A stretch of DNA of 64,000 nucleotides, from positions 51,380 to 115,379 of IMG/VR virus record IMGVR_UViG_3300021255_000050. One strand, 5' to 3'. Source of the DNA: a virus (lineage: Duplodnaviria; Caudoviricetes). The position numbers were made by a program, and so were the translations under genes. The notes beneath the pieces are model-generated. The model did not search any database, was not told the DNA's origin, and saw only the letters and a program-made list of their open reading frames with translations. The stretch's first letter is position 1; every line of letters begins with the position of its first letter. Positions 672-40,940 of the stretch are shown here, piece by piece.

Positions 672-747
672 GCAAGCGTAGCTCAGTGGTGAGAGCAGGT
701 TCCTTATAAGTGCCGTGCCGCTGGTTCGATTCCAGCCGCTTGTACCA
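672..747 (+). tRNA. tRNA-Ile (anticodon UAU)
   Basis: Acceptor GCAAGCG/CGCTTGT, D arm, anticodon loop CT-TAT-AA, T arm GCTGG-TTCGATT-CCAGC, encoded ACCA; one T-T mismatch in the anticodon stem. Confidence 0.8.
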
Positions 748-20355: not shown

Positions 20356-23300
20356 TTACCAGCTAAGTCTTGTAGTTGCGATGCCTTGACCTGAGATCTG
20401 CTTTACAAATTCCTGGCCGACCTTCTCGGCGAGTTCCTGAAGATCGAGGTTGTCATTCAGTTGGTTCGTGCTTACGTGAATGTCGCCGACGGTAACGGTT
20501 GGCTTACCTGTCAGCATATCGGAGCGGAACGCGGTCGAGAACATGGGGACGCTCACGCGAGAGAACGCGCTGATCATCTTGCGCATGTCAGCCATAACGC
20601 CGCTGTCGAGCAAGCCACGAATCATTTCGCGGTCATCGCTGTTAAGGAAAGCTTCGGGCTTGGACTTAGTGCCGTCAACCCATGCCGGGCCGGTGTAATC
20701 TACGAGGCCGCCACTCTTGTATTCTGAAACATTGATCTTGTTCTTTAATGCTTGCGCATAACCATGTACCATTCTTACTGTTGTTGCTACATCACCATAT
20801 CGCTGTGGGTTTGCATTAACAAAAGACGCGGCCAATTCATCCAGCATAGCTTCGGCAGCCGCTCTTGCTTCTTTTTCCGTTCGGAAACCTTGAAGGGTTC
20901 GTCCCTGGAATCCATGCGCCGTTTCCCATCCAGCTTGATATCTCTTTATTGTTGCAATTTTCTCGTCGCTGTTAGCATTTTTGTTTGCACCACTGTTGGT
21001 ATTGCCACCGGTGTTGCCGCCGCCATTACCGCCACCGCTGCCATCGCCGCCGTTGTAATTAGCAAAGTTCTCGTCGCTGTGGAAATATGTAGCCATATCT
21101 TGCATTGCTGCAATCCATGCATCATATGAACCAGAGCCGGCATCTACATCGAGCCACTGATAAAGAAGTTGCTTACGCTTGTCGTCACTGGCTGTCTGGT
21201 ATTCATCGGAGGCCATCATATAAGCTGCGAAGGATTCTCTGTCACCGAGTATGTTATGCACTTCATCCCAGTAGGTATCAAGAATGTGCAGCATCTGCTT
21301 ATAGGTATCGGTCCAACTCTGAACCATTTGTGTTTGTGCATCTTCAATACTGTAAGTGTATTCCTTTACATTTTTCTTCAGCCAATCAAAAAGCTCTGTC
21401 TGGTTAAGCTTCATAACTCCATTAACCTCTTCGGCAAAGTTATTAGCATCACGCAGCAAGCGCTCCAGATCTTCGTCACCATATGTTACGTACTGATCGT
21501 AAGCTTCGATCTCGTCGTCCATGCTCTTCTTCTGTGCTTCTACTTGTTCTTCTGCGATCTTCCAGCCGCGCTCTTCCTGCAGATCATCGATCTTCTTCTG
21601 CAGCTCCTTCACATCTTTCGTGCGGGTGCTGTCCATGCTGATAAGAGCAAGCTGCCTCTGGTATTCAGCAAGCTCTTCGGCCTTCTTGGCTTCGTTACTT
21701 GCGTCCTTCCTGCGCTGGAGTTCTTCGTCAATATACTGTTTCTTCTTTTCGAGAGCTTCCTTCTCTTTTTCAACGCCCTTCTTAATGAGCAATATGTTGG
21801 CGCAGCAGGTTGTCATCCTTGCGCCGTTATACAGTGCACTTAAATATACTGCCAGTGGAAACCGCCGGCGGTTTTGCGCAGACCACAAGCAGCTCGCCGA
21901 ACCATCTCTTTTCCGGGGAGACTTTGCGTGGCCGCTTTTGCGCTGGGATAAATAACACCGGTCTCAACACACAAGACCGGTTTCGAATTTATTTCTGCTA
22001 GCTTTTGCTTTGTTTCCTCTGAGTGGTGGAACCCTGTTTTTACTGCACTCATCTTCTTTCGGTACTCCTCTGTATGCATTGCGTTAACGATCTTCTGATG
22101 CACCTCTGGTTCCGCAAGTATCTGGCGCCGAAGCTCGATGTACTCCGGGTGTTCTTCAATGTATCGGTGCAAGCTTTCGATCCGGCGAGCTGTTACTTCG
22201 GGCGAAACCTCGCGACCACCTTCACCGCCGGCTGTCATGTTGTAGCCGTACTCCGGGTTGTTCGAATGGTAAGCTGCGATGAACCGTTGCTCTTCGCTGT
22301 TGAGCGAATCAATGCTGCAGGGTTCGAGGAGGAAAGCATCGAAAGCTTCGGGACCATACTTATTATATGCGTACTGCAGATGAGTGTTAGGGTGGGAACC
22401 GCGCTTTAGTTTACTCATGTGTTCTTTCAATCTCCTATCTACGTTTTTGGACTGGCCAATATAACACTTATTATTTACCATGTTTCGAATCATGTAGATA
22501 CCACTTTGAATGCAACCACCTGCCTTAGGTGGCACTGTATAACCCTCACACTTTCATGCGAGTTCAGACTATATCTTGTGTGCGCAGCAAAGCGCAGCAC
22601 ACCAACCGCTTCGGCAGCAATGACGGGGCGCTGCCTACTCCATATAGGATAGTCGTTGAACCTTCTTCTCAGCGGGCTTTGCAAAGTCTTATGAGAAGCT
22701 TGGCTGCTGATTGCCCGTGTACATCCGCGCCATTTTCGAGCATTCGCGTTTGCTCTCGCGAGCTGCGCTGTAGCTGGCGGGCTTTGGGGTGTTCCAGCAA
22801 TTCGATTGGTAGGGACCGTATAATCCCATTCGTCTTGGTAGCGTTGTTTAATCGCGTCGAGAACCGTCGTTTCCATTTGGACGCGAGCATCGAGCATGTC
22901 GCGCTGGATCTGGATGCGGTTCCGAATTTCCTGATCAACGAGGTCTTCGAGATCAGTATGCGTTTTGAGGATAGCTTGCTCGTTCTGTTTCATCTTCTTG
23001 GTGTTCGCGTCAATTGTATTGTTAGTTTCGTCTAACTGCTCTTCGTACTGCAGCACTTGCTCGTAAAGTTTTTGCCAGTCGTCGGAACCACGCTCTGTCG
23101 CGGCAAGCTGCTCGCGAAGCTTCGTGATCGCGTCGGCGAGGACCACGCTCTTCTCGCGCTGCAGCTCGTTCTCGTACTCGATCATATTGTTGACGTTGCC
23201 GAGCTGGCCGAGCTGTTCGTACTTGGTTTCCTGGAGTTGGGTCATCTTGATGCGGTGATCGGCAAGAGTAATTTTGTTCTTGAGGTTTTGGAGAAGCTTG

Positions 23301-26300
23301 TCGGCTGCAGATTTACCACCGCCGCCACCGCCGCCGGCTGGCTTAATACCGCCACCACCGCCGCCGAATTTTACTGAGTCTGATTTGAGTTCGGCAACAT
23401 ATTGTCCTTCAGAATTCTTTACGATATCCCAGTTAGCCTCAATGTATGCCTGAAGAGTTTGGAGTATACTCATTACGTCGTCACTGACTTGTCCTTGCAA
23501 TGCCGAAATAATCGAACCGATTCCTACGTCTTCAACAGAGCCGCCGTTAAGCATAATATGCAGAGGATTATCCAATTCGATAGTTCCAAAGTCTATTGTA
23601 TTAAGAACATCGTTAATAGCAGCAGTCGCTGTTTGTGCAAAGCCAGTAGCTACTTCTATATCAGAAGATTCAACACCTTTAAGTAGCTGCTCTACAAGAC
23701 CAGCATTTGCGGAGTCCTTAACGAACTTCTTATTATTAATACCTGTTTGCTGCATGATAGAGGAAACAACATCTTCAGATCTATTTCCTTTGCGCCACTG
23801 TTGTCTTGCCCATTGGCGTTCATTAGCTTCAAGCAGTTCTTTATTCATATTGTTAAGCGTTTGATTTACATCTTGCTGTGAACCATTAAGCCCCTGCAAG
23901 TTCTTTTTTACTGACTCTGTGTTATATCCATATTTACCCATCGTTGTATTGGCAGTATCAACAACTTTCTTTAAGTCTCTGAATGTTTTAGCAGAATCTC
24001 TGTTCTCATCATTAAGAGCAGCAAGTGCTTCTGTCCCACCATCAAACTGTTTGATCATATCGACGAGCCATGTATTATCACTCAGATATGAAGAGAAACC
24101 GGCAAGATCAAGAGATCCTGTAGAAAGCGCACCAGCAAAGTCGCCACCGGCATATCCATTGAGGGCGCCCATCATGATGCCAGCCGTTTGATCAGACCGC
24201 AGTCCTGCCATAGAGGAGTTGTTGTACAGATCATTCAGCAGCATATTGTAGGTGTTTGGATCACCAGTGAGTTGCCATGACTGAGTATTTTGATCGTATG
24301 TGTACAGCCTTGCGAAAGCTTCTGCGAGTCCGCTGCCTTCGAGGAAACTCTGGAATTGACTGCCATTTTTAATCCAGTCAGTTTCGGAAGATGTCAGCGC
24401 GTTAAGCAACGATTGAGCATCGCCAGCGCTAGTAGCCATTTCAAGCAGTGTGTTAACGCGACTATTCTGAAGTTGCTTGGCACCATAGCCAGATGAGTTA
24501 TTTACAAAGCTTGCAAAGTCGCTTTCGGTCCAGGCGTCTGTTACTAAGTTTGCACCTTGAGTAATTGCATTGGCAAGAGTTCGGAAAGTTTCTGCAATAT
24601 CTGCAGCGCCATCCATGCCAGAAGTTTTGATCATGGTTGCCATTTCATCAAGCGTTGTGGCATATCCTGAGTATGAAGTTCTCATGCTTTCACGGACTTT
24701 ATTCACGCTGTCAGCAGAAGCATCAAGCGAATCAACATCCATGTCACTCATGTCACCGAATTGTTTTGCGTATTCTTTTATCTTCTCGCTATCATACGTA
24801 CCGTACTTCGTCATATTACCAAGTTCTTTATATGCTTCAGAGAACGCAACCACATCGTCAACGATTTGGTTAACGGTACTATTGCGCTGCTTTGAAGTAC
24901 CGAAGAGACTACCATACTGATTGAGGAGATCAGCATTGAGTTCCGGGTTTTCAAGCAGCTTCTGAGTAACTTGAGCTTGGCGAAGCTCTTCGTTGATTTC
25001 GTTAATCTCGCCGGGGTTAAGTGTACCGCCAGCCATAACGCGGGCTGCGTACTTGCCCCATGTGCCGTAGTTACCGAGAGCGGCTGCGAGGCCACTGTTA
25101 GATGAGTCGAAGGTTCGGAGTGTATCAGTGTCGCCGTTGGCAAGAGCTGTCATGAACTTCATTACATCTTCATTGCCGTAAGCTGTATAAGAGTTGTAAG
25201 CATCCATGCCGTAGGCATACTGTGCGATGGTATTGAGTATACCTTGCCGGTCGCCGTTCTTAACGAGAGTCTGGAATGCTTCGTCTTCGGCGAGCGTTCT
25301 AGCGAGATCAGAATTTGCAAGGACGCCTTTTGATATGGCATCTTGATATGACATGCCAGAGTTCATAAATTTAAGAAGCTGCATTGCGTCGCGGCGCGGA
25401 TCATATGTGTTGGCTACACGCTGCGAAACTTGAGCTGCGGTTGGATTAACGCCTGGAATAAACGAAACACTATAATCATTATCAAGTCCAAGTAATTTTG
25501 CAGCTTCAGATTGTTGAACTTTAATGCCATATTTCTGTAACTGAGAAATAAAACCTTCTCTATATTCAGGTGGCAAGCTAGCCATAATGATAGGTATCAT
25601 ATTAACCAACTTGTTTTTATCTGCTGCAACGGAGCTGCCATAAGTTTTCATAAGTTCTGTGTTTGACATACCCATAATTGTGCTTGCATCAACATTGAGA
25701 TAATTTGCCAACGCATTGTAATTCGAATCACTATGGCTGCCGCCGATGATTGCATTGAAAGCGTTAATACCCATGGCTGTGGTTGTGAGGGAGCCGGCTA
25801 TAGCATTAACTCTACTTGCTGCATCAGAGCCAACATCGAGTTCTGCAATTTCTTTAAGGTTGGAAGCAATGTCACTGGTAAGCTTACCAAGCTTTACAAG
25901 GTCATCATAACCACTGACTTTTACTTTGACTTCGAAATCATGAAGAAGACCTTGACCTTCTGGAGAGGCACGCTGCTCATCAGTCATGTTGAGGTATTTG
26001 TATAGTTCTGGGTAAGCAGACTTAATTTGTTCTTCGAGAGTGTCATCCATATTTTCTGACATAGTTTTCCAATCTGTGGAGTTGAGGAGAGCTTGTGCTT
26101 GCTGTGCAATATAGGCGTTGGTAAAGATAGATTCAGTTGCAACGAGAGGATTATCCGTCGGCAATGTCCATGAACCGGAAGAAGAAACCGTTCTTCTTGT
26201 ACCTGGACTATCCATTACTACACCTTCTATTGTATCTCCGGCTTCCCAGTCAGAAGATGCAGATGACCAGTAAACGCCATGTGTTGCACTAAAGTTAAGA

Positions 26301-29300
26301 AGTTGCTGCAGAAGTGGATTGGTAGCTGCAATATCGTTTATGTTAAGTTTTTTGGTTGGATCGGCTGCATCCATAATTCCTACTATAGTATCTGCCATAC
26401 TGCTTGTGAAAGAGTCTATATTTGACTCTACAGCATTTTCGAATACCGAATAAAAGAAATCGAGATTTTGTTCAACATTAGCAACACTTGTACTAAATGC
26501 TTTGGCAAGAGTAGCTTTCATTTCCGGGGTAAGGTTATCTTTCCCTGTAGCAAGAATTTTAGACTGGTCAGCCATAGTTTGAAGAGTGCTAGATGCTGCA
26601 GAAAAATAGTCAGTTAAATTCTGACTATTAAGAGATTTTTTAAGAAGATATTCACCAAGATCTGCTGCAGAATAAATTCCATCTTCAGCACGGAGACTAT
26701 CAATGATTTTATCAAGTTCGGCATCATTTTGGAGAAGAGATGAAAGATTGGGAACTTCAATGTCAGTGAGGCTAAGAAAATCATTTATATTTGACACGTC
26801 CAAAAGAGAGTATAACTTTCTGTACTCTTCAATAAATCCTTTGTTCTTGCTTGTTTGACTAATAGATTTAGAAACGGCAGAAATAGGTGAATGTTCCTTA
26901 AGTCCAGTTATGTTATTAATAATATCTTTTCTAAAGGCATTATAGTCAATGGTTTTATCTTCTTTTATATATTTATCCAACCAAGATCCGTTTTTAGCAT
27001 ATCCTCCAGAAATGATGTATGAATGGATAGCATCAAAAATACTTTTGTCGCTGAGATCATTCAATCCTATTCCGTTTTCGCCACCGATACTATATATAAA
27101 TCCTCTAGATGTTGGATCAATAAATTTACTATAATCAAAACCGCTATTTATTATCTCTTCCAAGAATTTAAATATGTTATCTGGATTCAGCAAATCCTCT
27201 TCAGGGTATTTGCTATAATAATAATCAAGCAAAGCGCTTTCGACATCAGTATTTCCAGATGTTAGCGTCGTCCAAGAATCTGAATATCCGTTTGTTATAA
27301 CATCCTTAACATATTGTTTTATTCGATCTTTTCTAGTCAGATCGCTTGTATAGTAAAACTTGTTTAAGTAACTGTCATTGTCATAAACTTGATCGATAAA
27401 ATGCTGTGCTGCATAATAATCTTCTTGCTTTTGCCCGTCTGCATTCAAATGATTTATAACTTCATCGGCAGTTCTATATGAATGCCAAGCATCATAAGGC
27501 CTTGAAATATCGTTAGCTAAATACATTGTAAGCAATTCTTTTAATGCGTCACTTGGAGTAATTCTCGTTCCGGAAAGAATACCGGTTAATTTGCTGGCAG
27601 CAGATTCATCATAATATCTATAATCAAAATCATTTGGATCATATCCTTCGTCTTGTAACTTCTTACGCCATTTTTCAATATCTTGAACTGTTGAATTAAC
27701 TGTTACCGGAAGAACTTCCTTTGATGTTTTACCAGCCAAACTGTTAGATATTGTTTCTTTAGCTTTACTCGATTCTTCTTCTATTATTGGTTTAGCAATG
27801 CCAAGAGCATATATCAAATCGTCTTTTTTCTGCTCTTTCATAGCTTCCTTGGCTTCTTTATATAATGTAATATAATCTTCTAGGCTTGCGTTTGTAATAT
27901 CTATTGAACGACCTAATTTTGGGAAAACAGCAGATAATGAAAGAACTGAATTAGCAAGTTCAAGTGAATGCTCTGAACTGATCTCACTTAATGAATCGTA
28001 CTTTTCGGTTATTTTTTCAATAGATGAAATAGCTTTATCAACAGATTCGTATTTTTGTTTGTATTGTTCATTATTAAATTTCAACTTTTCCCTTGCATCT
28101 GAATTAGTGTCATTGTTAGGAGTTTTCGTACCACCAGATAATCCGGGTAAAATATTAAACAAAAACCCAGAACTAGCAATACCAAAAAGACTACCAATTA
28201 TACCGGCAATAGGAGCAAGAGGAGTTGCAGCAAGTCCTATAGTTGTTATAGATTTGATAAATACGCCAGTCAACAAGGACATGATTGTTTCAGCGATAGC
28301 AATTGTTTGTTTCCCTGCATTATTCAAATCAGTTAAACCCTGTATCATTTTTGTAATGTTGTCAAATATGCTAGTTATTTCATTGCTTGAACCAAGTGAT
28401 GCTATGAATTCATCAAACGTGGACTTTAAAGTATCTAACGCCGCTTGAATGCCTTTAATTGAGACTTCATATTTTGATTGAGTTGTTCCTTTTGCGTTTT
28501 CAGTCAAACCTAAATATTCATCAAGTAAGGCACCACCGTCTTCACCCATACCTTCCATAAGTGTATTGAACATATTGGCATTTCTATTACCAACCATAGC
28601 ATATGTGATATTGTTCTTTTGTAAATCGTTTAACCCGTTCCATACTTTTGCAACATCTCTTAATACATCAAAAGAACTTCTAAAAGAATCCTTGCCATCA
28701 CGCAGTGAAATGCCAGCAGTTTTCAATGCAGCTTCCACGTCATTTATATTGGTAGTTTCTCCACCTTCATCTGTAAGGTATCCTTCTTTTGTAACTCTAT
28801 TCATTCGACTAAACAAGGTTTGGAAAAATGTTCCAGCTTGATTTCCGCTCAATTGAGTCTTGCTCGTTGCGATTGTTAACATTGAAGTAAGTTCTGCATA
28901 TGAAACGCCTGCTGTCTTTGCCGACGCTGCAGCTTTCTGCATTCCTTTTTGAATCTCTTCTGCAGTTGTGGCAGCGCTATCACCCAATGCGACCAATACA
29001 TCCATAGCTTCTTCAACAGAACTAACAAGTCCTGTTTGAATAGCTGTTGTTAATCCCTTTGTGGCATTTGTAATATTTTGGCCTGTGACTGTGCTAAATT
29101 TAATAATTGCCTCAGTTCTGTCTTCCACTTCCGCATCAGACAAGCCCTGCCTATACAATGCAGCTTTTGTTTGAGTAACATTTTTCACAGAAGTATGAAG
29201 ACTCTTCGCTTGTGAAAGAGAACTAGAACGAACAATACCCATTTCCTCATCTGATTTCCCAGTGATTTGTTGAATGGTAATCATGTCTGCATTAAACTGT

Positions 29301-32300
29301 TTTACAAAAGAAGTTATTTCATTGGCTATTTTCATAAATAATCTGCGGCCCAAGCGCATAATTAATCCGTCAACAGCACGACTTACATTCATAAGAGATG
29401 TTCCGACAAAACCACCAGCACTACCAAAATTCTTCATTGCCTTTTGTGCAAATTCTAAATTGTTTTGCAATTCTTTGATTTTGCTATTTGACGCATCCAA
29501 CTGTTTGTCTATATTATTCATTGATTCTGTGTATATAGAGTCTTTAGTTTTTCCATAGTAAGAATGCTCTAAATCATCTTTTCGCAATAACAGCGCATCG
29601 CGAGTTGCTTCTTCCGTATTTAATTGCGCTTCATAATTAGACGAATTATTTTTCCAGTAATTATATTGTTGTTCGTTATATTGTAATGACCGCCCAATAA
29701 TGTCAGAACCATAATACGTATTGGACATTTTATAGCGAGCCATGTTTTGTTCTAATTGATTCTGATATTGCATAGCTTGTGTTTGTTGCCTAACAAGATC
29801 AAGCTCTTGTTTTTCTTTCTGCGATTTATCCAAAGTACTTTTTAGTGTATCTGCAATCGCGCCCTGATTCGCAGTGTTATCTGGATTGACAAATGGGAGG
29901 AATTCTGCCGGCAATGCATCGATACCATTTTGATTTATAAATGTATTGATAGCATTAGCATAACTTCTGGCTTTAAGATCATTCATTGTAGCATTTGCTA
30001 TTGGCATGCCTGTAATCGAAGAGAAAAGATTATGCATATTCTGCAATTGATTAATATCATATCGATCTAGTTCAAGTTGATCCATTCTGTCCAGTTTGTC
30101 AAGATCAGCCATCTGCAATCTATCTCTAATTTGCATCAATTTGTACATTTCAGGATTTCTTGATTTAAAGCCTGCTTCATCAGCTTCTCGTTGCCATTCT
30201 AATTCAGGGTCTATCGCTTGTTTAAGGAAGTCCATATATTTTGAATGCGTTATCCTTCTATCTTCCTGCTTTTGTATAACCGCATCCTTCCTAGTTAATA
30301 ATGAATTTGCATATGCTTCGACCGCTTTAACTTTAAGACCACTTTCATATTCATCAAAATCGAAAGCATGCAATGAGTCCATTAAACCATTTAACGTTGT
30401 TTGTTGCTTTTCTGAAAGTTTCTCTCTAGCAAAGATTCTAGTTAAATCGGCTTTTTGTTGTTCGATCTCAAGACGTTTTTTAAGAACTTCTGCTTGAACA
30501 TTATCGCTAATACTTGTTGTACCAAGAATGTCTTTCGTGGCAGTACTCTCTGCCAAAAGAGTATCATTTATATATCTCTTTCTAAGCTTATTAAGATTGT
30601 CTTCAGATTTTAAATTTTCAAATCGACTTATAATAACACTAGCATCAACAGGTTGAATAATTCCTTTTTTAGAAAGTTCGGAAACATTTCCAATATTCTG
30701 ATTAATATCTTGCTCAAATGCATCCATCATCTGTTTAATTGTCAGTTTCTTCATATTTGGGCTTACCTTGCCATTCATTTCATTTTCAGCTATATTATAT
30801 GAATCTGCAAGTGTTTCAAGCATTCGCGTTTCAAGGCGATTTTTATATGTAGCCACTTCTACTGCTGCTCTATTGTATGGATCTCGCGTTGCTTTTTGCG
30901 CTTCTATAAGTTCTTTCTGTTGCTGTTTGAGTCTTTCTCTTTGAATATTTGAATTTGCATTAAAGGTATCAATTTCTGTTTGTTCTTTCTCTTGTTCTTC
31001 TTTTGTTTTGGCTCTATGCTGATTGTTTCTATCCTTTTGTTTGTCATCCAAAGTCTTCCACTCATCTTGAATGGCTTTTATTTTTAGTCCAATTTCAGCA
31101 TAGTTTTTGTCGGCTTGGTCTACAGATTTACTCAATGAGTCCCATTCTTCGATAACATTATCAATTTCTTTTGATGCAACAAAACCTTTATTAACACGTT
31201 CAAGCGAATCGGCAAGTTCGTTATAAGATTTAATTGCAGCAGTTGGTAATGTTTGGTTGTATTTATCTTTTGCTTTTTCTATTGCGTTTCCAAGATTTTT
31301 TGATTCTGCATATTGTTTATTTGCCTCAAGAACTTCTTGCTGTCTCTCTGCGGCAAGAATTGTTTGATGGTACGCTTCCCAAATATTACCATATGGTTTA
31401 TCATCGGATAAAAACATTTTATCTAAAGTTCCGGTCATTTTAGTAACGTCTTTCATCGTTTCTTTATAATCTTCATGAGCTGTAAGAGTTGCGCCTATAC
31501 CTGTAGCATTAATACTACCAGCAGTAAGAGCATCATGAATTTCATTATCCCATTTATAATTTCTTAGCGCCAAAGACTTATCTTTTCCAATTAATATATC
31601 ATGAACCATATTCTGAGCTGAATAAATAAAATCCCCTCTAAGCCCAGTATTTGCGAGTTCTTGCATAGTTTGTACAGCAAGTTTGATGTTGTCCATATTT
31701 AATTTTAGCGCTTTTGGATCAACTGAAAAATCATGTGTATATGACCCAGTTCCTGAAATAACATCTGGGAAAATAGCTTTAAGCGCTTCAAAATTATTAT
31801 TTGTTGTATCAAGAGTTGATCCGTCACCCATGACAGCCGCAGGACTACCTCCATTTTGGAATTGATCTGCCATAGCATAAGCCATAAGTTGTACTTCAAC
31901 CTTCTTTAATTGTTCATTTGTCAATGTGTCCCATCCACCATATGTTTTTATATCAGCAATTGTAAGCTTATGATTTTGTATGTTTCTAAACAAAGCGTCT
32001 TCTCGCCCTGTAAAATGAATATCTTCCCCGCCGAGTATCTTTTTGCCAACATTAGACATAGTAAGTATATGTTCATGTCCAAGATAATCATAGATATCTG
32101 TTGGGAACAAGGCACGAAGCCCATTTTCAGAAGTAAGAAAATCTCTGACATTGTGATACTTTCTGTTTGTTCTATTAACGTATGCCTGGCCAGTATATTC
32201 CTTAATAATATTTTCGTATTCGCTTGAAAGACTATCTTCTTCTAACTGTTTTCTTATATATTCGTTAAAGCCTGCATATCCTGAAGTAAGTATCTGGCCA

Positions 32301-35300
32301 GATTCATTTTTACCATGAACTAATTCATTGATAAGATCAGTCGTTTGAGCATCTGTCAATGTTCTGCCTTTGCCTTCTTTTACATTTTTGTCAACTAATT
32401 CTTGTCTACGTGTCCAATATTCCTGTATGATATCCTCTGTAGCGTGTCCAAATGCAGTATCTCTACTTGTCCCTGTATCAGAGTGTTCAGGCTTACCTAG
32501 ATTCTGCTTTATCCATCTAGATCCACCAAACGTTTCATCGGCAAAACCAAGTATATTTGTTATAGACCAAAGCGTATTATCTAATTGTTCTTGAATTGTT
32601 TCTTTTGGCATTCTTGCTAGAGTCCTGAGTTTATCGTCATCGTTTTTCTCAGATCGCCATTCTGAAAAATTATCTTTGTTGTAAACTTTTAAACTTTTCA
32701 AATCAAGATTGCTATATGGGTTAATACCAAATCTTTCTAATGCAACAAGACGAGCGCCCCAATCCTTAGATTTCCCTGAAACATTGCCTTCATACAGACC
32801 TATATTCGGATCAATAATATTTGCAAGCGTTGCACCGCCAAATGCTTCAATAATCTTATCAACATCGCTTGCTGTTCTTCCGATATTCCCCTCTGCCTTT
32901 CGTGCTGCTTCTTTCATTTCAAGAAGCGAGAAAATATCATCAGAAGATCCTATAAGAAAATCGCTTTTAAGTAACCCAGAAAGATATGTTTGCATTCCTT
33001 TAATATATTTTCTAGTTTCTTTCGTGAGTTTAGGTTTATCACCAAGTACGCCGGAACTTTCAAGGGAGTCCATAATACCAATAAAAGAATTTTCAAAAGC
33101 TTTATCCCAATCAATTTCTTTGTCGATATTCTGACCATGGCTTCTTGCTATCATTCTTGAAGTTAGGCTAGAATAAATATTACCAGTCATTGTCCTTGTA
33201 GGAGCATTGATCTTAAATAAATTAGTATCTCTAAATTTGTTATAGTCATAGTGTCCTCTATCATCTTTGCTTTTCATTAATGTGTTATAAAATTCAGACC
33301 ATGATTTATATTTATTCATGATCTCTTGTCCTTCTTTTGTCGAGTTAAAGAAAAAACCATACTTTGCAGCAACTGAATTTGCATCATATTGGGAAGATGC
33401 CATGTTAATTGCTTTAGCGGTTTCTCTATTTATTGGTATTTGTAAAGCATTTCTTGTTATTGCATTGGGAGCACCAAGACGAAAACTTTGTTGTGCATAT
33501 GCAGATATCCATTTACCTATATGAGCAGGATCTTTTGTATTAAATTCTGTTAAATCACCCATAATGTTCTGCTTAAGAGCGGCTTCTCTTTGACTTTTTT
33601 CTTCTTCAGTCATTTGTCCTTTTCTCATAAGGTCGTTATGAGTTTTGATTGTTTTCGAAAATATTGTTTGAATAATCTTTGACATTGGAGCATTTGAAGA
33701 TATAAGATCAAAAATTTCATTAACGTCGCCATCAAAGTCTTCACTTTGCAATAAATCTAACAAAGGAGATGACTGTGAAAAATATATAGCGTTTGGATCA
33801 AGCCCCAATAATTTTGTAAGATCCTTAAAGCTTTTAGACTTTCCAGCTCTTATAAGTGCTTGTTGGTTAGCTACATTATTAACTTGCTGTAATGAACCAA
33901 TGGATGCAGGAAATCTACTAATGCCAAGCATGTCTGACAAGCTTTTTGAATATACCGCGGCATTATCAGCTATACGTACATCAGATATTTCTGAACCATT
34001 TTTAGGGTCAATTAAAGAATTAACAATTCTACCAGCCGCATTTACGACGGCACCTTTTACTTGCCGTTCAACACCATTTTTATCCTTTATATTAGCCACG
34101 GCATTTGGATCCCACTTATATCCAAGTCCGAGCATGCTTGTTGGAATTTCACTACCTTCTATTCTTCTACGATACATGCCGCCCTTTGTAGGTTCAATGT
34201 CTTGATATAATGCATTAATAGCATCGGAGAAAACATTTGCAACCCATGGTGCTGCTAACCCTCTATGCGTACCAAGTTCTTCCGGGACAACAAGATCCCC
34301 TCTGCCAACTCTTTCTAACATGTTTCGACGGAAAGCTTCAACTCTATTTTTATATTGCTTTTGGTTTAAGAGAGTTGGATTATCAATTAGCATCTTTTGC
34401 AAATTTGAATCGTCCGCGAACACATGCTTAATTTGACCAAGCGGTGTATTGAGGTCGGTGTATAAGTTCCAAAATGCATCAGAAAATACTTGAGCTTGCG
34501 TTGCGTCAATTGACATTAACTGAGCCAGCTGTGATGGTATCCATGATAACGTTTTACTGCCGGCTTGGGCAGCTGTTTTATTTACATATATACCACTTGT
34601 TCTTATACGATTCGCGAATTCTTTTGACAATTCATCAGATGATTTTGTAACTTTATACGTCTTCCCATCCGGGCCTGTTACATCTTTCTGAAAAGCAATT
34701 CCGAAACCCTTCAAATCAGCCTTGTTGAGAACAACATCTGTGTCTGCTTCAATAAACTGTATAGATCCATCAGGTGCACGAACTGGGATTTTCCCACCGA
34801 AAAGATCAACCATCTGCTTCATATTGACAGAATTAAGAGCAGATTTAACACCAAGAATACGTCCCTGAAAAGCCGTGCCTCCAGTTAACTTTGACGAAAG
34901 AAAACTTGCGCCATTTAAACCTGGGCCTACTCCTCCTTGCCCTTTCGTATCCTCTTCAATATCCATTACAACAACTTTCAAGTTCGAAAGGTTAGTTCCA
35001 AAAAGGTCTCTAATATCAACACCTTCGGTAGCTATTTTATTCATATATTCAAAGTATCCAGCAAAATCTTTTACATTTGTAAATTTGCCGCCTTGCATAC
35101 CTCCGGTGAAGAAATCTTTGCCATATTTACTTTCTATTCTATTCTTTAACTCCAAAGGAATCATTTCAATTCCTGTAGACTTTGGATTAATTCTTGTTGC
35201 GGCATATTTAACACCATTAATTGTTCGCCCATGTAAAAAGAGATTGCCATATTTCTTTTCCAAATCTTTTCTTATATCATCAGGTGTATTCGGATCAGCG

Positions 35301-36820
35301 AGCCTCGGGTCAATTGAGACATACACAACGTTATTTAATGCTGAATTATGTGGAAGAACTTGGTGGCCACCTGTTTCTTCTCGCATAATAGCATCAAGTT
35401 CAAGGCTTTGATTAACAGGTATTTTGTGTTCTCTATTAGCACCAACTGAATTATCTTGAAAATTTTCTCCGCGTAACAATTCATCAATTGTATATGTTGT
35501 TGCTTGGTATGTATTCGGTTGAACCGCAAAGTTAACATGTCCTATATTTTTATTAAGCTTTGGTGTTTTGGTAGCCTTCCCATTTTTGGGTTTAGGCATA
35601 CTGGCAAGATAAGAGCTTGTTGCAATATCACGAAGATCAGTCAGTTGTGTGTCAGTAAATCTTCCAGGTGACAACCAACTAAATTGTTTTGTTAAAAATC
35701 TTTCAGCATCAAGCCCGCCATATAACATTTTGTTTGTTTTGTTGAGAATCCTATCAAACATGTTTGGGTCTGCGACATCGGATATACCATACATTGGTAA
35801 ACCTTTTGCACCATTAATAGTCATATCATGGATAAGAGCTGCAGCGGCATTGACCTGCTGCCTCGTAATAGCTTTGTCAAGATAAAAATAACCATTTTCT
35901 CTACGAAGAACTTGCGCTTGTTCGAACGCCTTTGCTGCATATTGGTTTTCTCGTACCAATGAAGCTACACGCTTAAGTTCATTTTTCGAAAGACGATCAT
36001 TATTATTTTTAGAAGTGCGTGTCATATAATCAGACTGTTGAATCTCGGCGAAACCAACATTCGATGCACCTGCTTTAAACTGCCCTGGTAACATATCGGC
36101 AAAGCTATTCATAGGCCCCATGCGTTGGTTTTGTCCTCTTAAATGATTCATAAATGATCCACGTTGAGTTTTGTCTACTTCTGTTATGATATTTAACCCA
36201 ATGAGATCTGACATGAAATTATCAAATGTTTTATTGTTTGCAAGATTTTTAGAAGCCTTCCTTGTAAAATATGTCATGTCTGTTTTTATCTGGCTTGCTA
36301 TGTCTTGATAATCTTTTCTATGCATAACCGCACCGCGAATAACATCATCGGTTACAATGCCACTATGCGTTGAAGTGTTATGAGAAAAATCATTTGCAAC
36401 TTTTAAAATTATATCTCTTAGTTTTGGCAATTGTTGATTAACAACACTTATATCATGGTTAGTTAATCCAAGGCTTGATAGACTCCTTGCGAGTTGTGAT
36501 GCAACTGTTAAATCTTTTGATAACCCGGCAATCGTATGCAAACCTACTTCGTAACGACCAGCATTAAGAGTGTTAGAATAATCATTCGACGAAGATGAAG
36601 TGTACTCCTTTTTAGCTTCATCCATTATACTAGTAGTTTCTTCTAGATCGTGCCTAATCTGTTGTGTAAAATTTCCGAAAACAGGCGCCATTGAAGCAGC
36701 GGCTGATTCTATACCACGAATTCTTGACTCAAGACGTTCGCTTGCATCCGCAGCATTGACAAGATCTTTATAGCCGCCCATATCCATTTTTATTTGTGCT
36801 GTAAATATAGCATCGGCCAT
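20356..36820 (-). CDS. giant tape measure polyprotein, spliced: exon 1 36820-22823, exon 2 21789-20356 (~5,143 aa)
   Basis: TP901-type TMP core at ~29310-28400; C-terminal GGLVDYTGPAWVDG..KPEAFL; the splice joins ...QDEWD|LIKKGVEK in frame; position between TAC and Dit. Confidence 0.88.
21790..22822 (-). mobile_element. group I intron (1033 nt) in the TMP gene
   Basis: 5' splice after U with P1 GGGAU/GUCCC; P AATTGCTGGAA, Q AATCAGCAG, R GTTCAACGACTA, S AAGATATAGTCT; terminal G at 21790. Confidence 0.92.
21840..22535 (-). CDS. intron-encoded GIY-YIG homing endonuclease with NUMOD-type C-terminus
   Basis: SGIYMI..NNKCYIGQS..R, GYN, HHSEETK, KPVLC.ETG..Y.S, TAGGFHW. Confidence 0.93.
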   Translation of the reverse strand: MPPKAGGCIQSGIYMIRNMVNNKCYIGQSKNVDRRLKEHMSKLKRGSHPNTHLQYAYNKYGPEAFDAFLLEPCSIDSLNSEEQRFIAAYHSNNPEYGYNMTAGGEGGREVSPEVTARRIESLHRYIEEHPEYIELRRQILAEPEVHQKIVNAMHTEEYRKKMSAVKTGFHHSEETKQKLAEINSKPVLCVETGVIYPSAKAATQSLPGKEMVRRAACGLRKTAGGFHWQYI

Positions 36821-38331: not shown

Positions 38332-38807
38332 ACTTGTTCCTCCATCTCGTCAATCTTGTTCAAGCGGCAGAAGATGTCGAGCAAGTTGTAAATATCTGCA
38401 GAGGTCATGTTGTCGAAGTGCTTCTTCGTAAAGGCTGCATCATCAACAACACAGGTTACCCAGTCCATGAGGCACTTTGTAGGCGTACGCTTTTCGTCAA
38501 AGTAATCATCAGGAAGCTGGAAGATGTAGGGAAGCGGCATGCTTTTCAGCACCCTGTAAAAACCAGCAACACCATTACGCTGGTAGAACATGCGCGTTGC
38601 TTTTATCTCTATAGTAACGCCGTCACATGTGAACATATTTTGCATGTTCTCAGCCGGCGGGATTGGCTTGCTGGATATTTCTTCTGAAGGCTGCGGTTCC
38701 GAAATCACTTCTTCTTTCGGGAGATCGCTGGCTTCAATATCTTCATCAGGCAGTGTACCGGGGTTCGGCACCTTTTCTGTGGGAAGCTTCTTCGGCATAA
38801 TCATCAT
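38295..38807 (-). CDS. tail assembly chaperone (gpG-like)
   Basis: Between MTP and TMP; ends ..VKN on a slippery site. Confidence 0.78.
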   Translation of the reverse strand: MMIMPKKLPTEKVPNPGTLPDEDIEASDLPKEEVISEPQPSEEISSKPIPPAENMQNMFTCDGVTIEIKATRMFYQRNGVAGFYRVLKSMPLPYIFQLPDDYFDEKRTPTKCLMDWVTCVVDDAAFTKKHFDNMTSADIYNLLDIFCRLNKIDEMEEQVKNRMATAATMG

Positions 38808-38818
38808 CTCTTCTTTTT

Positions 38819-38850
38819 AAAAAAGGGCTGCCAGTGTTAGTAGCAGCCCT
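38819..38850 (-). terminator. rho-independent terminator after MTP exon 3b
   Basis: AGGGCTGC...GCAGCCCT followed by a T run. Confidence 0.75.
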
Positions 38851-38855
38851 ATAAG

Positions 38856-39010
38856 TTAGCTTGAATATTTGTCCGTATCGTAGTTGGACTCGTCGTACTT
38901 GGATTGCTGTCCGTACCCCTTGCTTACAATGCCAACCTGCCAAGCGATGTTGTCATCGCCGCCGGGGTCCATTGTAGACAGGGTGAGCGGAAATGTAGCT
39001 GCTGATTTGT
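38856..39010 (-). CDS. major tail protein alternative terminal exon 3b
   Basis: (Y)KSAATFPLTLSTMDPGGDDNIAWQVGIVSKGYGQQSKYDESNYDTDKYSS*; paralog of exon 3a, same phase, preceded by an intron-like 3' end. Confidence 0.75.
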
Positions 39011-39050
39011 CATTTACATTCAGCATAGATCGCTACACTATGCTCGCGCT
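39011..39050 (-). ncRNA. duplicate group I intron 3' module (P9.2-like hairpin plus terminal G)
   Basis: AGCGCG-AGCATAG-TGTAGCGAT-CTATGCT-GAATGTAAATG has the same layout as the 3' ends of both MTP introns. Confidence 0.75.
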
Positions 39051-40391
39051 TTAGGACGACTTCTTCTTGGGATTGTCGATGATGCCAACCTGCCATGCAA
39101 TAGCATCGTCATCGCCACGGTCCATCGTGGAGAGAGTCAGCGGGAAGGTAGCAGCAGACTTATCATATGTATTCACCGCAGTTCGCTGGGCTGCAGTCGC
39201 GCCTTAAGCACTGCTCTATGTCGCCATAGAGATTAGACCATATCTTCATCTCAAGTTGAGAGGCTACCGTTTCGACCACCAATCGCTTGTGGCCTACTCC
39301 CATATGGGATGGTCGTTAGAGTCTATGCGTATAACGCACTTGCTACGGGATTGTCTCGTAGAGAGTTTCCCCGTTTAGGTAGCTTTTGCATGCAGCTCAC
39401 GCTGCAAGGAACCTATTGTTTGCTAAGCTCGTGTCAACAGTGTGTGTTCAGCATGGTTCGCAACACCATGCCCGCTTTTCAGCTGCTGCATATCACTATG
39501 CAGATCGGACTATATCTTCATCCATTTTCATGGAGCTTCCCATTTCGAACGCCATATGCTTGCGTCCTACGCCGTAAGGCTAGTCTCTAGGCTTTTTGCA
39601 TACTCTTTTCAGGTATGCATTTAGCACGGTAGGTTGTCTTACGCTGCCGTAAGAGTTTCCCCGTTTAAGGAAGTGTCAGTATGCATTGCTGCATAAAGGA
39701 CCTTGACAAATGTAAAGCCAGGAAGAGTGGTCACGCGGGTCTTGAAGATACGAACCACAGCATACTTGATGATGCCGCTTTCTTCGCACTTCTTACCGTC
39801 GTTGTAGATAGGCCACTTAAGGATAACTTCGCCGCAAGCCACGTCCCTGTTGTTGATGTTAACAACATTGGCAGTGGAATCTGCAGTCTCGTAGAAGATC
39901 TCCATCTCGTCGGTTTCATCATCAGAGAACAGGACCGTCTTTGCTTCGGTATCAACATAGTAATAACCGGACGCAACAGGAGTGCCAGAAGCCTGTTCCT
40001 TCAGACCATTGATATACACGGTGCCAGCGGCCGGCTTATAGGTCAGGGTAACCTTGTGGGTAGTGGCATCGGGAGTAAGAGACTCGCTGACAGGAACCAG
40101 GAAATTGGGATCGTTCACGAAATCAGCAGCATTCGCGGCAGCAAAGATTTCGGGCATGAAATCGCCCAGAGTGATCTGGATGTCCATGGTGGACTGGCCA
40201 GGGATGTTAGCAGAAGCATAAGCGGACCACCCAGAGCGAACCTCAATGAAGTCCACCTGAGGATTCAGGGAGCACTGCGTAACATGCTTGCTTGTAAAGA
40301 CTTTCTTGTCGCCACCGCGCCTAAAGTAGAACTGCGGAACGTCGACAATGTAGCCGCCAAACTGTGGTACATATTTGGTTGCCATAAGCAT
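39051..40391 (-). CDS. major tail (tube) protein, spliced: 40391-39716, 39437-39426, 39163-39051 (266 aa; 280 aa with exon 3b)
   Basis: Joined reading ...RVTTLPG-F-DTS-Y-KSAATFPLTLSTMD; position between tail terminator and TAC. Confidence 0.85.
39164..39425 (-). ncRNA. group I intron 2 of MTP (262 nt, no ORF)
   Basis: P1 GAGCU/GGUUC; P3 GCTACC/GGTAGC; P4 AAACGGGGAA with AATCCCGT; P7 GACCA/TGGTC in GAAGATATGGTCT; terminal G at 39164. Confidence 0.9.
39438..39715 (-). ncRNA. group I intron 1 of MTP (278 nt, no ORF)
   Basis: P1 GGCU/GGUC; perfect P10 UGUCAA/UUGACA; P3 CTTCC/GGAAG; P7 GACTA/TAGTC in GAAGATATAGTCC; terminal G at 39438. Confidence 0.92.
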
Positions 40392-40445
40392 TCACGTTCT
40401 TTCAATTGTATTTATGATAGCTCGTCCCTCACACGAGTTACATAC

Positions 40446-40940
40446 TTAATAAACTCTCGTGAAAGTCATCGTGAGGCAGTGGCGTTCGTACCCTATGGTC
40501 CGTGTGCCAAGCACCGTTTCATGCGGATCACGAAACTTAAACACACCGATGTACCCGTAGTTCTCATCGCGCGGCTTAATGTAAAGCAGCTCAAGGAACC
40601 TGCGAGCAATACGCTGTGTTCGTGCGACAAGGCGGTCCTTGCCAACAGTGTGCATCTTCTCAGTCGGACAATAGATGTCGAGGCTGAGTGTCATGTTATG
40701 AGCATTTGGGATGTCTGTGCTGTCAGCTGGATAAAAACCATAGACGACGCGAATGTCCTCGTTGGTGAGAAGCTCGGACGTGGTCTTGCCAGCCTGCACA
40801 AAGTAGCGGTTCACAAATTCAAGGATGCTGGTTTTCGGGGCAACCCCCATCAGCTCCTTCAGCTCTGTATCGGGAAAGATGACGTCACGAATAATGTCGA
40901 GCCAGTCATCGTCCCAGGCGGTGTACAGCATTCTCACCAC
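40446..40940 (-). CDS. tail terminator/completion protein
   Basis: Immediately upstream of MTP; size and D.ELKELM / DIYCP pattern. Confidence 0.6.
   Translation of the reverse strand: MVRMLYTAWDDDWLDIIRDVIFPDTELKELMGVAPKTSILEFVNRYFVQAGKTTSELLTNEDIRVVYGFYPADSTDIPNAHNMTLSLDIYCPTEKMHTVGKDRLVARTQRIARRFLELLYIKPRDENYGYIGVFKFRDPHETVLGTRTIGYERHCLTMTFTRVY

What the first reader, a model, noticed from the sequence alone, without database searches (positions are those of the whole stretch)
39164..39715. Tandem ORF-less group I introns around a 12-nt micro-exon in a structural gene
Seen: two compact introns (278 and 262 nt) with complete P1/P3/P4/P7/P9 signatures and P7 covariation (GACTA/TAGTC versus GACCA/TGGTC) flank TTGACACGAGCT (39437-39426). 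The first 6 nt of this exon form intron 1 P10 and the last 5 form intron 2 P1, so nearly every base serves splicing as well as coding (F-D-T-S-Y). All three junctions share phase 1, so exon skipping would also stay in frame. The distal duplicate module resembles the 3' end of intron 1, and intron 1's guide region AUUUGU is complementary to the start of exon 3b (ACAAAU), so an exon 1-3b product is also conceivable. Standard gene callers would report a truncated MTP.
Basis: partly seen in the sequence, partly recalled or inferred. Interest (0 to 1): 0.75.

Follow-up and report, generated by a model that had tools for sequence, protein, structure and literature searches.

The report
Twin introns and alternative tail-tube ends
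A gut phage's tail-tube gene is split by two real self-splicing introns only 12 bases apart, and the second intron most likely chooses between two alternative last exons, giving a short and a long form of the protein, the same outcome a sister phage reaches by ribosomal frameshifting.

Summary
Rfam scores both elements as group I introns (68.1 and 53.1 bits, cut-off 50). The boundaries fit a U.G pair at each 5' site and a terminal G at each 3' site. Removing both introns gives PG-FDTS-YKSAAT, and an intron-less homolog reads exactly that. A near-identical sheep-gut relative lacks intron 1 precisely at the DNA level.

The gene is an SPbeta-type (YomU) tail tube gene in a complete 115-kb phage.

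The downstream duplicate end (3b) is probably not junk. In a strongly supported clade, the deep lineages that keep an intron at this site carry two or three intact terminal cassettes. Most distal cassettes sit behind their own copy of the intron's last hairpin and a terminal G. All 7 hairpin pairs covary and every cell is paired. The long cassettes share a Y/F-D-rich tail found in frame in none of 76 tube proteins. An intron-less member of the clade reaches the same kind of tail by a textbook -1 frameshift signal.

I read this as alternative 3' splice-site choice by intron 2 (about 0.6). No RNA junction was recovered, so it is unproven.

First readers flagged 3b in this genome. The scan noted alternative end-pieces after a Staphylococcus phage tape-measure intron.

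The parts
39716..40391 (-). Exon 1 of the tail tube gene (225 codons plus 1 base)
   Evidence: ORF and translation; phrog_2729 virion structural protein; homologs carry PF27173 YomU_Tube; PDB tail tube matches.
39438..39715 (-). Intron 1, a 278-nt ORF-less group I intron. P1 guide 39704-39699, P10 guide 39708-39703, P7 39585-39581/39512-39508, terminal hairpin 39472-39450, terminal G 39438.
   Evidence: Rfam 68.1 bits. Precise absence in a near-identical DNA contig. The same intron sits in L017 behind a different exon 1.
39426..39437 (-). 12-nt micro-exon, which completes F and encodes D-T-S plus the first base of Y
   Evidence: Intron-less homologs read PGFDTSYK contiguously. Homologs with only the second intron read PGFDTS and then run into the intron.
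39164..39425 (-). Intron 2, a 262-nt ORF-less group I intron at the family's recurrent site after DTS. P1 guide 39415-39409, P7 39314-39310/39240-39236, P9.1 5' strand about 39211-39202, terminal hairpin 39197-39175, terminal G 39164.
   Evidence: Rfam 53.1 bits. Orthologous introns at the same site in L002, L008, L009, L010, L012 and L018.
39051..39163 (-). Exon 3a, the proximal terminal cassette (short C-terminus; stop at 39053-39051). Total product 266 aa.
   Evidence: Translation. It aligns with the C-termini of intron-less homologs.
39011..39050 (-). Distal 3' splice-site module: a copy of the 3' strand of P9.1, a 7-bp hairpin (39044-39022) with a 9-nt loop, a GAA tail and a candidate terminal G at 39011
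   Evidence: Alignment A3 and pair counts: 100% of cells paired, all 7 pairs covary. MFE folds pair its start with intron 2's P9.1 5' strand and loop out 3a.
38856..39010 (-). Exon 3b, the distal terminal cassette. It re-encodes the last two beta strands and adds a Y/D-rich tail; stop at 38858-38856. Predicted long product 280 aa.
   Evidence: Translation. Long-type cassettes with the same tail motif in L002, L009, L010, L018, P0081 and P0083. Present in independent sheep-gut assemblies.
38824..38850 (-). Intrinsic terminator of the tube transcription unit, placed after 3b and not after 3a
   Evidence: It is the only minus-strand terminator-like site in 38600-40600. The terminator also follows the last cassette in L002, L009 and L018.

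Best explanation
Shown: the tail tube gene of this SPbeta-like siphophage is interrupted by two diverged (58% identical), ORF-less group I introns that lie 12 nt apart in the loop before the last two beta strands. Canonical splicing joins exon 1, the micro-exon and exon 3a into a 266-aa tube protein.

Inferred, about 0.6: intron 2 has two competing 3' splice sites. The proximal one gives the short form. The distal one (G39011) removes 3a as part of a longer intron and joins the micro-exon to 3b. That gives a 280-aa form whose last two strands are re-encoded and which ends in a conserved Y/F-D-rich tail.

The distal site carries its own copy of the intron's 3' end: the 3' strand of P9.1, the last hairpin, the GAA tail and a terminal G. 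The shared 5' strand of P9.1 can therefore pair locally or with the distal copy. For the distal choice, 3a sits in a peripheral loop, where group I introns tolerate large inserts. Transcription order and an altered distal hairpin loop would make the long form the minor one. The outcome matches the short/long tube isoforms that other siphophages make by frameshifting.
For: Introns: Rfam scores; U.G at both 5' sites and a terminal G at both 3' sites; compensatory changes between the two introns in P7 and P9; an intron-less homolog with the predicted junction; DNA-level presence/absence of intron 1.

Gene identity: YomU_Tube hits and neighbours. The model of the intron-less homolog P0008 has pLDDT 91.5 and TM 0.66-0.76 to SPbeta-family tail tubes.

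Alternative exon:
(1) In a 100/100-supported clade, the lineages that keep the site-C intron (window/L017, L009/L011, L010, L002/L008, L018) have 2-3 intact cassettes wherever the contig reaches that far; L011 ends inside 3a. The only single-ended members are one nested group that lacks that intron. L018's exon 1 is only 38% identical.
(2) Hairpins before distal cassettes keep 7 of 7 pairs, with compensatory changes.
(3) Coding constraint: window 3a/3b have dN 0.23 with dS saturated; L002 3a/3c have dN 0.058 and dS 0.96.
(4) The tail motif occurs only in cassette-type ORFs, in none of 76 tube proteins in frame.
(5) Three of six distal cassettes have no in-frame start codon.
(6) The intron-less clade member L004 has A_AAA_AAC at its stop, a 7-nt spacer and an 11-bp hairpin (-18.1 kcal/mol, z -3.4). 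Its -1 frame gives a Pro-rich linker plus the same kind of tail.
(7) The terminator follows the last cassette.
(8) MFE folds form the long-range P9.1 helix in three of four lineages.
Against: No spliced RNA was seen for any junction. The alternative-exon claim rests on comparative evidence from only five or six lineages, several of them short metagenome contigs. Mosaicism at the intron (L017) means exon-1 phylogeny may not track cassette history, so the ancestral-arrangement argument is weaker than the tree suggests. Intron 2 shows no convincing P10 with either 3a or 3b. Two distal cassettes (L002 3b and L018 3b) have no hairpin. Between L002 and L008, 3a and 3b show only non-synonymous changes (2 and 3), but the numbers are tiny. 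More distant site-C introns (L012-L014) have a single cassette. The long-range P9.1 complementarity is an automatic by-product of duplicating a near-palindromic helix. All four distal hairpin loops have lost the otherwise conserved GCGAA, which could mean tuning or decay.
Confidence: 0.62

Rival explanations
1. 3b is a silent relic. It would be the former resident 3' exon, with the end of its old intron, displaced when an intron plus its own 3' exon (3a) recombined in. It is transcribed as 3' UTR but never joined to the gene.
For: Introns here drag flanks with them. L017 is 100% identical to the window from the 5' splice site of intron 1 onward but only about 65% identical upstream, and the intron-1-less relative shows the same boundary. 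Each repeat unit starts at a stop-codon/UAA microhomology, as illegitimate recombination would give. The distal hairpin loops deviate from GCGAA. No junction RNA was found.
Against: All six distal cassettes examined, from five lineages, are intact and in phase behind a G. Four keep perfect hairpins with compensatory changes. The arrangement spans a clade with exon-1 identity down to 38%. The long tail type is never seen as the sole in-frame end of any tube gene, so a relic has no evident functional source. The intron-less sister lineage preserves access to the same kind of tail by frameshifting.
Confidence: 0.27
2. One reading: intron 1, guided by AUUUGU pairing with the start of 3b, joins exon 1 directly to 3b. 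More generally, programmed skipping of the micro-exon gives in-frame products that lack FDTS.
For: The 6-nt complementarity is real. All junctions are phase 1. Exon skipping by tandem group I introns is documented for the Twort tail tube gene and the SIOphi polymerase gene (PMC11878797).
Against: AUUUGU reads AUUCGU in the otherwise identical L017. A near-identical relative and four other lineages have 3b-type modules without intron 1. FDTS and its flanks are close to invariant across 76 homologs. Three of the six paired bases are already accounted for by P10 with the micro-exon.
Confidence: 0.08
3. The cassettes are DNA-level variation cassettes. Recombination between the repeated modules would delete 3a and bring 3b up to the intron, giving tail variants in the population rather than RNA-level isoforms.
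For: The units are tandem and homologous, with repeated hairpins.
Against: The cassettes differ at nearly every synonymous site (window 3a/3b are 64% identical at the nucleotide level), which disfavours homologous recombination. No 3a-deleted contig appears in four runs. No recombinase or inverted repeats lie nearby. No genome has a long cassette as its only cassette.
Confidence: 0.03

Closest known systems
Staphylococcus phage Twort orf142 (tail tube gene) with three group I introns and exon skipping (Landthaler & Shub 1999, as cited in PMC11878797 and PMC3073962)
   Same: Several related ORF-less group I introns sit close together in a phage tail tube gene, and alternative products are possible.
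   Different: Twort is a myovirus, and homology of the tube proteins was not tested. Its alternative product arises by skipping an internal exon. Here the candidate is a choice between duplicated terminal exons, each with its own 3' splice-site module. I could not read the original paper, so Twort's exon sizes were not compared.
Alternative splicing by bacterial self-splicing introns: the Clostridium tetani group II intron giving S-layer isoforms, and IStron alternative splice sites (PMC4430133)
   Same: A self-splicing intron uses more than one splice site and so gives protein variants with different ends.
   Different: Those are a group II intron and transposon-linked IStrons. Here it is a plain, small group I intron in a phage structural gene, with cassettes conserved across a clade.
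Tube protein extension by programmed frameshifting: SPP1 and the TpeX of 936-group lactococcal phages (PMC6669499)
   Same: One gene yields a major short form and a minor C-terminally extended form of the tail tube protein. The intron-less clade member L004 has such a -1 signal.
   Different: The window has no slippery site. The extension would be attached at the RNA level, and the last two beta strands have to be re-encoded because the splice site lies upstream of them.
Micro-exons between group I introns in organelles, such as the 1-bp exon in placozoan cox1 (PMC5436844)
   Same: Two independent group I introns isolate a very short exon.
   Different: Those are mitochondrial. I found no phage case this short in the searched literature, but the search was limited.
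SPbeta/SPR tail tube protein (PDB 8ygm, 8xkn; Pfam YomU_Tube)
   Same: Same fold and family, and the same gene neighbourhood of YonB, YomX and a giant tape measure.
   Different: Sequence identity is only 14-15% in the structural alignment of the homolog model, and no isolated phage matched by tblastn.

Membership tests
Group I intron (Rfam RF00028) | Covariance-model score above the curated cut-off | tested here: met
   68.1 and 53.1 bits against a cut-off of 50.
Group I intron (Rfam RF00028) | U.G wobble closing P1 at the 5' splice site and a terminal G at the 3' splice site | tested here: met
   U39716 and U39426 each face a G of the internal guide. G39438 and G39164 end the introns.
Group I intron (Rfam RF00028) | Conserved core helices supported by compensatory change | tested here: met
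   P7, P9, P7.1/7.2 and P8 differ between the two introns by paired changes. The terminal hairpin has 7 of 7 covarying pairs across 13 modules.
Group I intron (Rfam RF00028) | Precise removal restores a conserved reading frame | tested here: met
   The intron-less homolog P0008 and many others read PGFDTSYKS. A DNA allele lacks intron 1.
Group I intron (Rfam RF00028) | Splicing observed in RNA | tested here: inconclusive
   The one metatranscriptome gave two contigs, one inside intron 1 and one in exon 1, and no junction.
Mobile group I intron with homing endonuclease | An endonuclease ORF inside the intron | tested here: not met
   No ORF of that size lies in either intron. Relatives at the same site in L015 and L016 do carry GIY-YIG ORFs.
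Siphophage tail tube protein, YomU_Tube (PF27173) | Family profile match and tube fold | tested here: met
   Precomputed PF27173 on the window's product and on homologs. My Pfam copy gave no hit. PDB sequence hits to tail tube proteins at E 2e-6. Foldseek TM 0.66-0.76 for the homolog model.
Programmed -1 frameshift extension of a tube protein | Slippery heptamer, spacer and downstream structure at the end of the short frame | tested here: not met
   None lies at the end of 3a in the window. The feature is met in relative L004.
Programmed alternative splicing by a self-splicing intron | Two or more splice sites used in vivo, giving distinct proteins | not testable with these tools
   Only comparative support is available. 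No junction reads were available.

The most novel reading that the evidence does not exclude
A small group I ribozyme performs programmed, conserved alternative 3' splice-site choice. A shared P9.1 strand pairs with one of two or three duplicated selector-plus-hairpin modules, which gives mutually exclusive terminal exons and so short and long tail tube isoforms. The system would be evolutionarily interchangeable with -1 ribosomal frameshifting within one phage clade.
Probability: 0.55. Interest if true: 0.9.

Novelty: new variant of a known kind. Interest (0 to 1): 0.8.

Why it matters
Self-splicing introns in phages are usually treated as neutral parasites that only need to be removed. If the distal cassette is used, this would be a compact, protein-free alternative-splicing device in a virus of bacteria. 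Its logic of competing RNA helices choosing between mutually exclusive exons is otherwise known from eukaryotes. It would also be a natural case where splicing and frameshifting substitute for each other to set the ratio of two structural isoforms.

There are practical consequences too. Gene callers truncate this tube protein and miss both isoforms. The YomU tube gene family is an intron hot spot. These tube proteins also share their fold with the SPR tail tube solved in complex with the DSR2 defence protein, so variation at the C-terminus could matter for phage-host conflict; that last point is speculation.

Tried and rejected
RNA evidence. One metatranscriptome from the same sample as a DNA holder gave only two contigs (39471-39653, inside intron 1, and 40112-40377) and no junctions, so nothing can be concluded about splicing or expression.

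P10 for intron 2. I found no convincing guide complementarity to the start of either 3a or 3b in the window or in L018. L009 and L010 do have 4-6 bp with both cassettes (read).

P9.0. I could not define a consistent pairing.

Independent translation of 3b. Rejected, because an in-frame start is missing in three of six distal cassettes.

Segment-wise divergence between L002 and L008. There are too few differences to test constraint on the distal modules.

More multi-cassette loci:
- A protein word search with the cassette profile found only the window's own ORF.
- The exhaustive profile search found four further cassette-like small ORFs.
- An IMG/VR scan with the intron core motif found many more intron-split tube genes but no further multi-cassette case.

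Other searches. INPHARED phages gave no tblastn match. My Pfam copy gave no hit for exon 1. Landthaler & Shub 1999 is not in the library.

Readthrough from 3a into 3b. Rejected, because two in-frame stops intervene and the strands would be duplicated.

Full report
**Observation.** On the minus strand, Rfam places two group I introns at 39486-39725 (68.1 bits) and 39214-39459 (53.1 bits), against a cut-off of 50. A third lies in the tape-measure gene at 22545-22902. The Rfam model ends at P9. Both tube-gene introns continue about 48 nt further, through a hairpin with a 9-nt loop and a GAA-containing tail to a terminal G.

Reading the sequence gives these boundaries:
- Exon 1 ends at U39716, paired with a G of the guide.
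- Intron 1 is 39715-39438 (278 nt).
- The micro-exon is 39437-39426 (12 nt).
- Intron 2 is 39425-39164 (262 nt).
- Exon 3a is 39163-39051.

All junctions are phase 1. The first six bases of the micro-exon are complementary to UGUCAA next to intron 1's P1 guide (P10). Its last five pair with GGUUC of intron 2 (P1). The two introns are 58% identical, with paired changes in P7, P9 and the peripheral helices. Neither holds an endonuclease-sized ORF.

**Independent checks of the boundaries.** The intron-less homolog P0008 reads ...PGFDTSYKSPAT..., exactly the predicted splice product. Several homologs read PGFDTS and then run into an intron, so they carry only the second intron. A sheep-metagenome DNA contig covers 38700-39435 with two differences and then continues in exon 1 with intron 1 precisely absent. 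L017 carries the same intron 1, micro-exon, intron 2, 3a and 3b at 100% identity behind an exon 1 that is only about 65% identical. The mosaic boundary therefore sits at the 5' splice site of intron 1. An assembly chimera cannot be excluded there.

**What the gene is.** The window comes from a complete 115,379-bp virus record with terminal repeats and five group I intron hits. Exon 1 matches a virion structural PHROG. Homologs carry PF27173 YomU_Tube and have YonB, YomX and giant tape-measure neighbours. A model of the intron-less homolog (pLDDT 91.5) matches SPbeta-family tail tubes at TM 0.66-0.76. In that model both insertion sites lie in the loop between the long strand 208-223 and the last two strands. 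A terminal cassette therefore encodes those two strands plus the C-terminal tail. The DNA is held by animal-gut runs, mostly labelled sheep or sheep gut.

**The downstream duplicate.** Directly after the stop of 3a comes a 40-nt copy of an intron 3' end (39050-39011), ending in a G. Then comes 3b (39010-38856) in the same phase. It re-encodes the two strands and adds a Y/D-rich tail, and the only terminator follows it.

The same architecture recurs elsewhere:
- L002/L008 have three cassettes.
- L009, L010 and the distant L018 (38% exon-1 identity) each have two.
- L011, a close relative of L009, is cut off inside 3a.
- In every case the cassettes sit behind an intron at the same site.

In an exon-1 tree these lineages form a 100/100 clade. 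The only single-ended members (L004, L001, L006) are one nested group without that intron. More distant relatives with an intron at this site have one cassette.

**Evidence that the distal cassettes are used.**
- Hairpins: across 13 modules, 4 of them distal, the hairpin has 100% of cells paired and all 7 pairs covary, with 0 of 500 shuffles as good.
- Coding constraint: cassettes differ mostly at synonymous sites. Window 3a/3b show dN 0.23 with dS saturated. L002 3a/3c show dN 0.058 and dS 0.96.
- Tail motif: the long cassettes share (Y/F)D-x3-(Y/F)D. It occurs in further cassette-like ORFs (P0081, P0083, P0085) but in frame in none of the 76 tube proteins.
- Start codons: three of six distal cassettes have no in-frame start.
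- Frameshift equivalent: the intron-less clade member L004 ends in A_AAA_AAC next to its stop, followed by a 7-nt spacer and an 11-bp hairpin (-18.1 kcal/mol, z -3.4). Its -1 frame encodes a Pro-rich linker and a tail of the same kind.

The clade therefore appears to need a short and a long tube form and reaches them by two different recoding routes.

**Proposed mechanism (inferred).** The repeat unit begins in the loop of intron 2's small P9.1 helix. The distal module therefore supplies a second 3' strand for the shared 5' strand. MFE folds form this long-range helix and loop out the intervening cassettes in the window, L010 and L002, but not in L009. For the distal choice, 3a lies in a peripheral loop. 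All four distal hairpin loops have lost the GCGAA kept by 8 of 9 genuine terminal hairpins (about p 0.007 by my hand count). That fits weakened minor sites, but equally decay.

**Weak points.**
- No RNA junction was seen.
- P10 is poor for intron 2.
- Two distal cassettes lack the hairpin.
- The number of lineages is small.
- The long-range complementarity follows automatically from duplicating a near-palindrome.

The complementarity exists, but it is altered in L017. It is unnecessary in relatives without intron 1, and the product would delete the near-invariant FDTS.

**Comparison with known systems.**
- Tandem group I introns with exon skipping are known in the Twort tail tube gene and a Bastillevirinae polymerase gene.
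- Alternative splicing giving isoforms is known for a C. tetani group II intron and for IStrons.
- Tube extensions by frameshifting are known in SPP1 and 936-group phages.
- Micro-exons between group I introns are known in mitochondria.
- I found no report of conserved, duplicated terminal exons with their own 3' splice-site modules behind a plain group I intron.
- First-reader notes on this genome had flagged 3b as an alternative exon. Earlier scan reports describe two alternative end-pieces after a Staphylococcus phage tape-measure intron. I did not check those.

**Verdict.** The twin introns and the micro-exon are real (about 0.95). Alternative terminal exons are the best reading of the surroundings (about 0.6). 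A silent relic is the main rival (about 0.27).

Noticed in passing
window 22545-22902 (-), within ORF 22490-36820: A third group I intron (64.6 bits) interrupts the 3' part of a giant tape-measure ORF of at least 4,776 aa. The whole 115-kb genome has five RF00028 hits.
   Followed up: no
L004 3289-3384 (also L005, L007): An intron-less relative has an A_AAA_AAC slippery site at its stop codon, a 7-nt spacer and an 11-bp hairpin. The -1 frame adds a Pro-rich linker and a Y/D tail, so this is a likely programmed frameshift in a tail tube gene.
   Followed up: yes
L017 about 700-720 / window about 39716: A mosaic boundary lies exactly at the 5' splice site of intron 1: 100% identity downstream for 2 kb and about 65% upstream. 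This is either intron-associated exon swapping or an assembly chimera.
   Followed up: partly
YomU_Tube homologs P0009-P0079; loci L026-L105: The tube gene family is an intron hot spot. Read-through tails of called proteins point to at least eight insertion positions in the last 60 or so codons, and tblastn shows further splits near the N-terminus in IMG/VR loci. Most were not verified individually.
   Followed up: partly
L012 2001-2699: The tube gene of this relative translates to the database protein only with TAG read as Q, which suggests a stop-codon-recoded phage.
   Followed up: no
L015 907-1467; L016 1215-1838: GIY-YIG ORFs lie in or next to tube-gene introns of distant relatives, a possible source of mobility in trans for the ORF-less copies.
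   Followed up: no
alignment A3, loop columns 23-31: All four distal hairpins differ from the otherwise conserved loop ending GCGAA, while their stems remain perfectly paired.
   Followed up: partly
model of P0008 against PDB 8ygm and 8ygc: The best structural matches include the SPR tail tube protein solved in complex with the DSR2 defence protein, so these tube proteins may be defence triggers.
   Followed up: no
window 672-744 (+): A tRNA gene (59.3 bits) lies in the phage genome.
   Followed up: no
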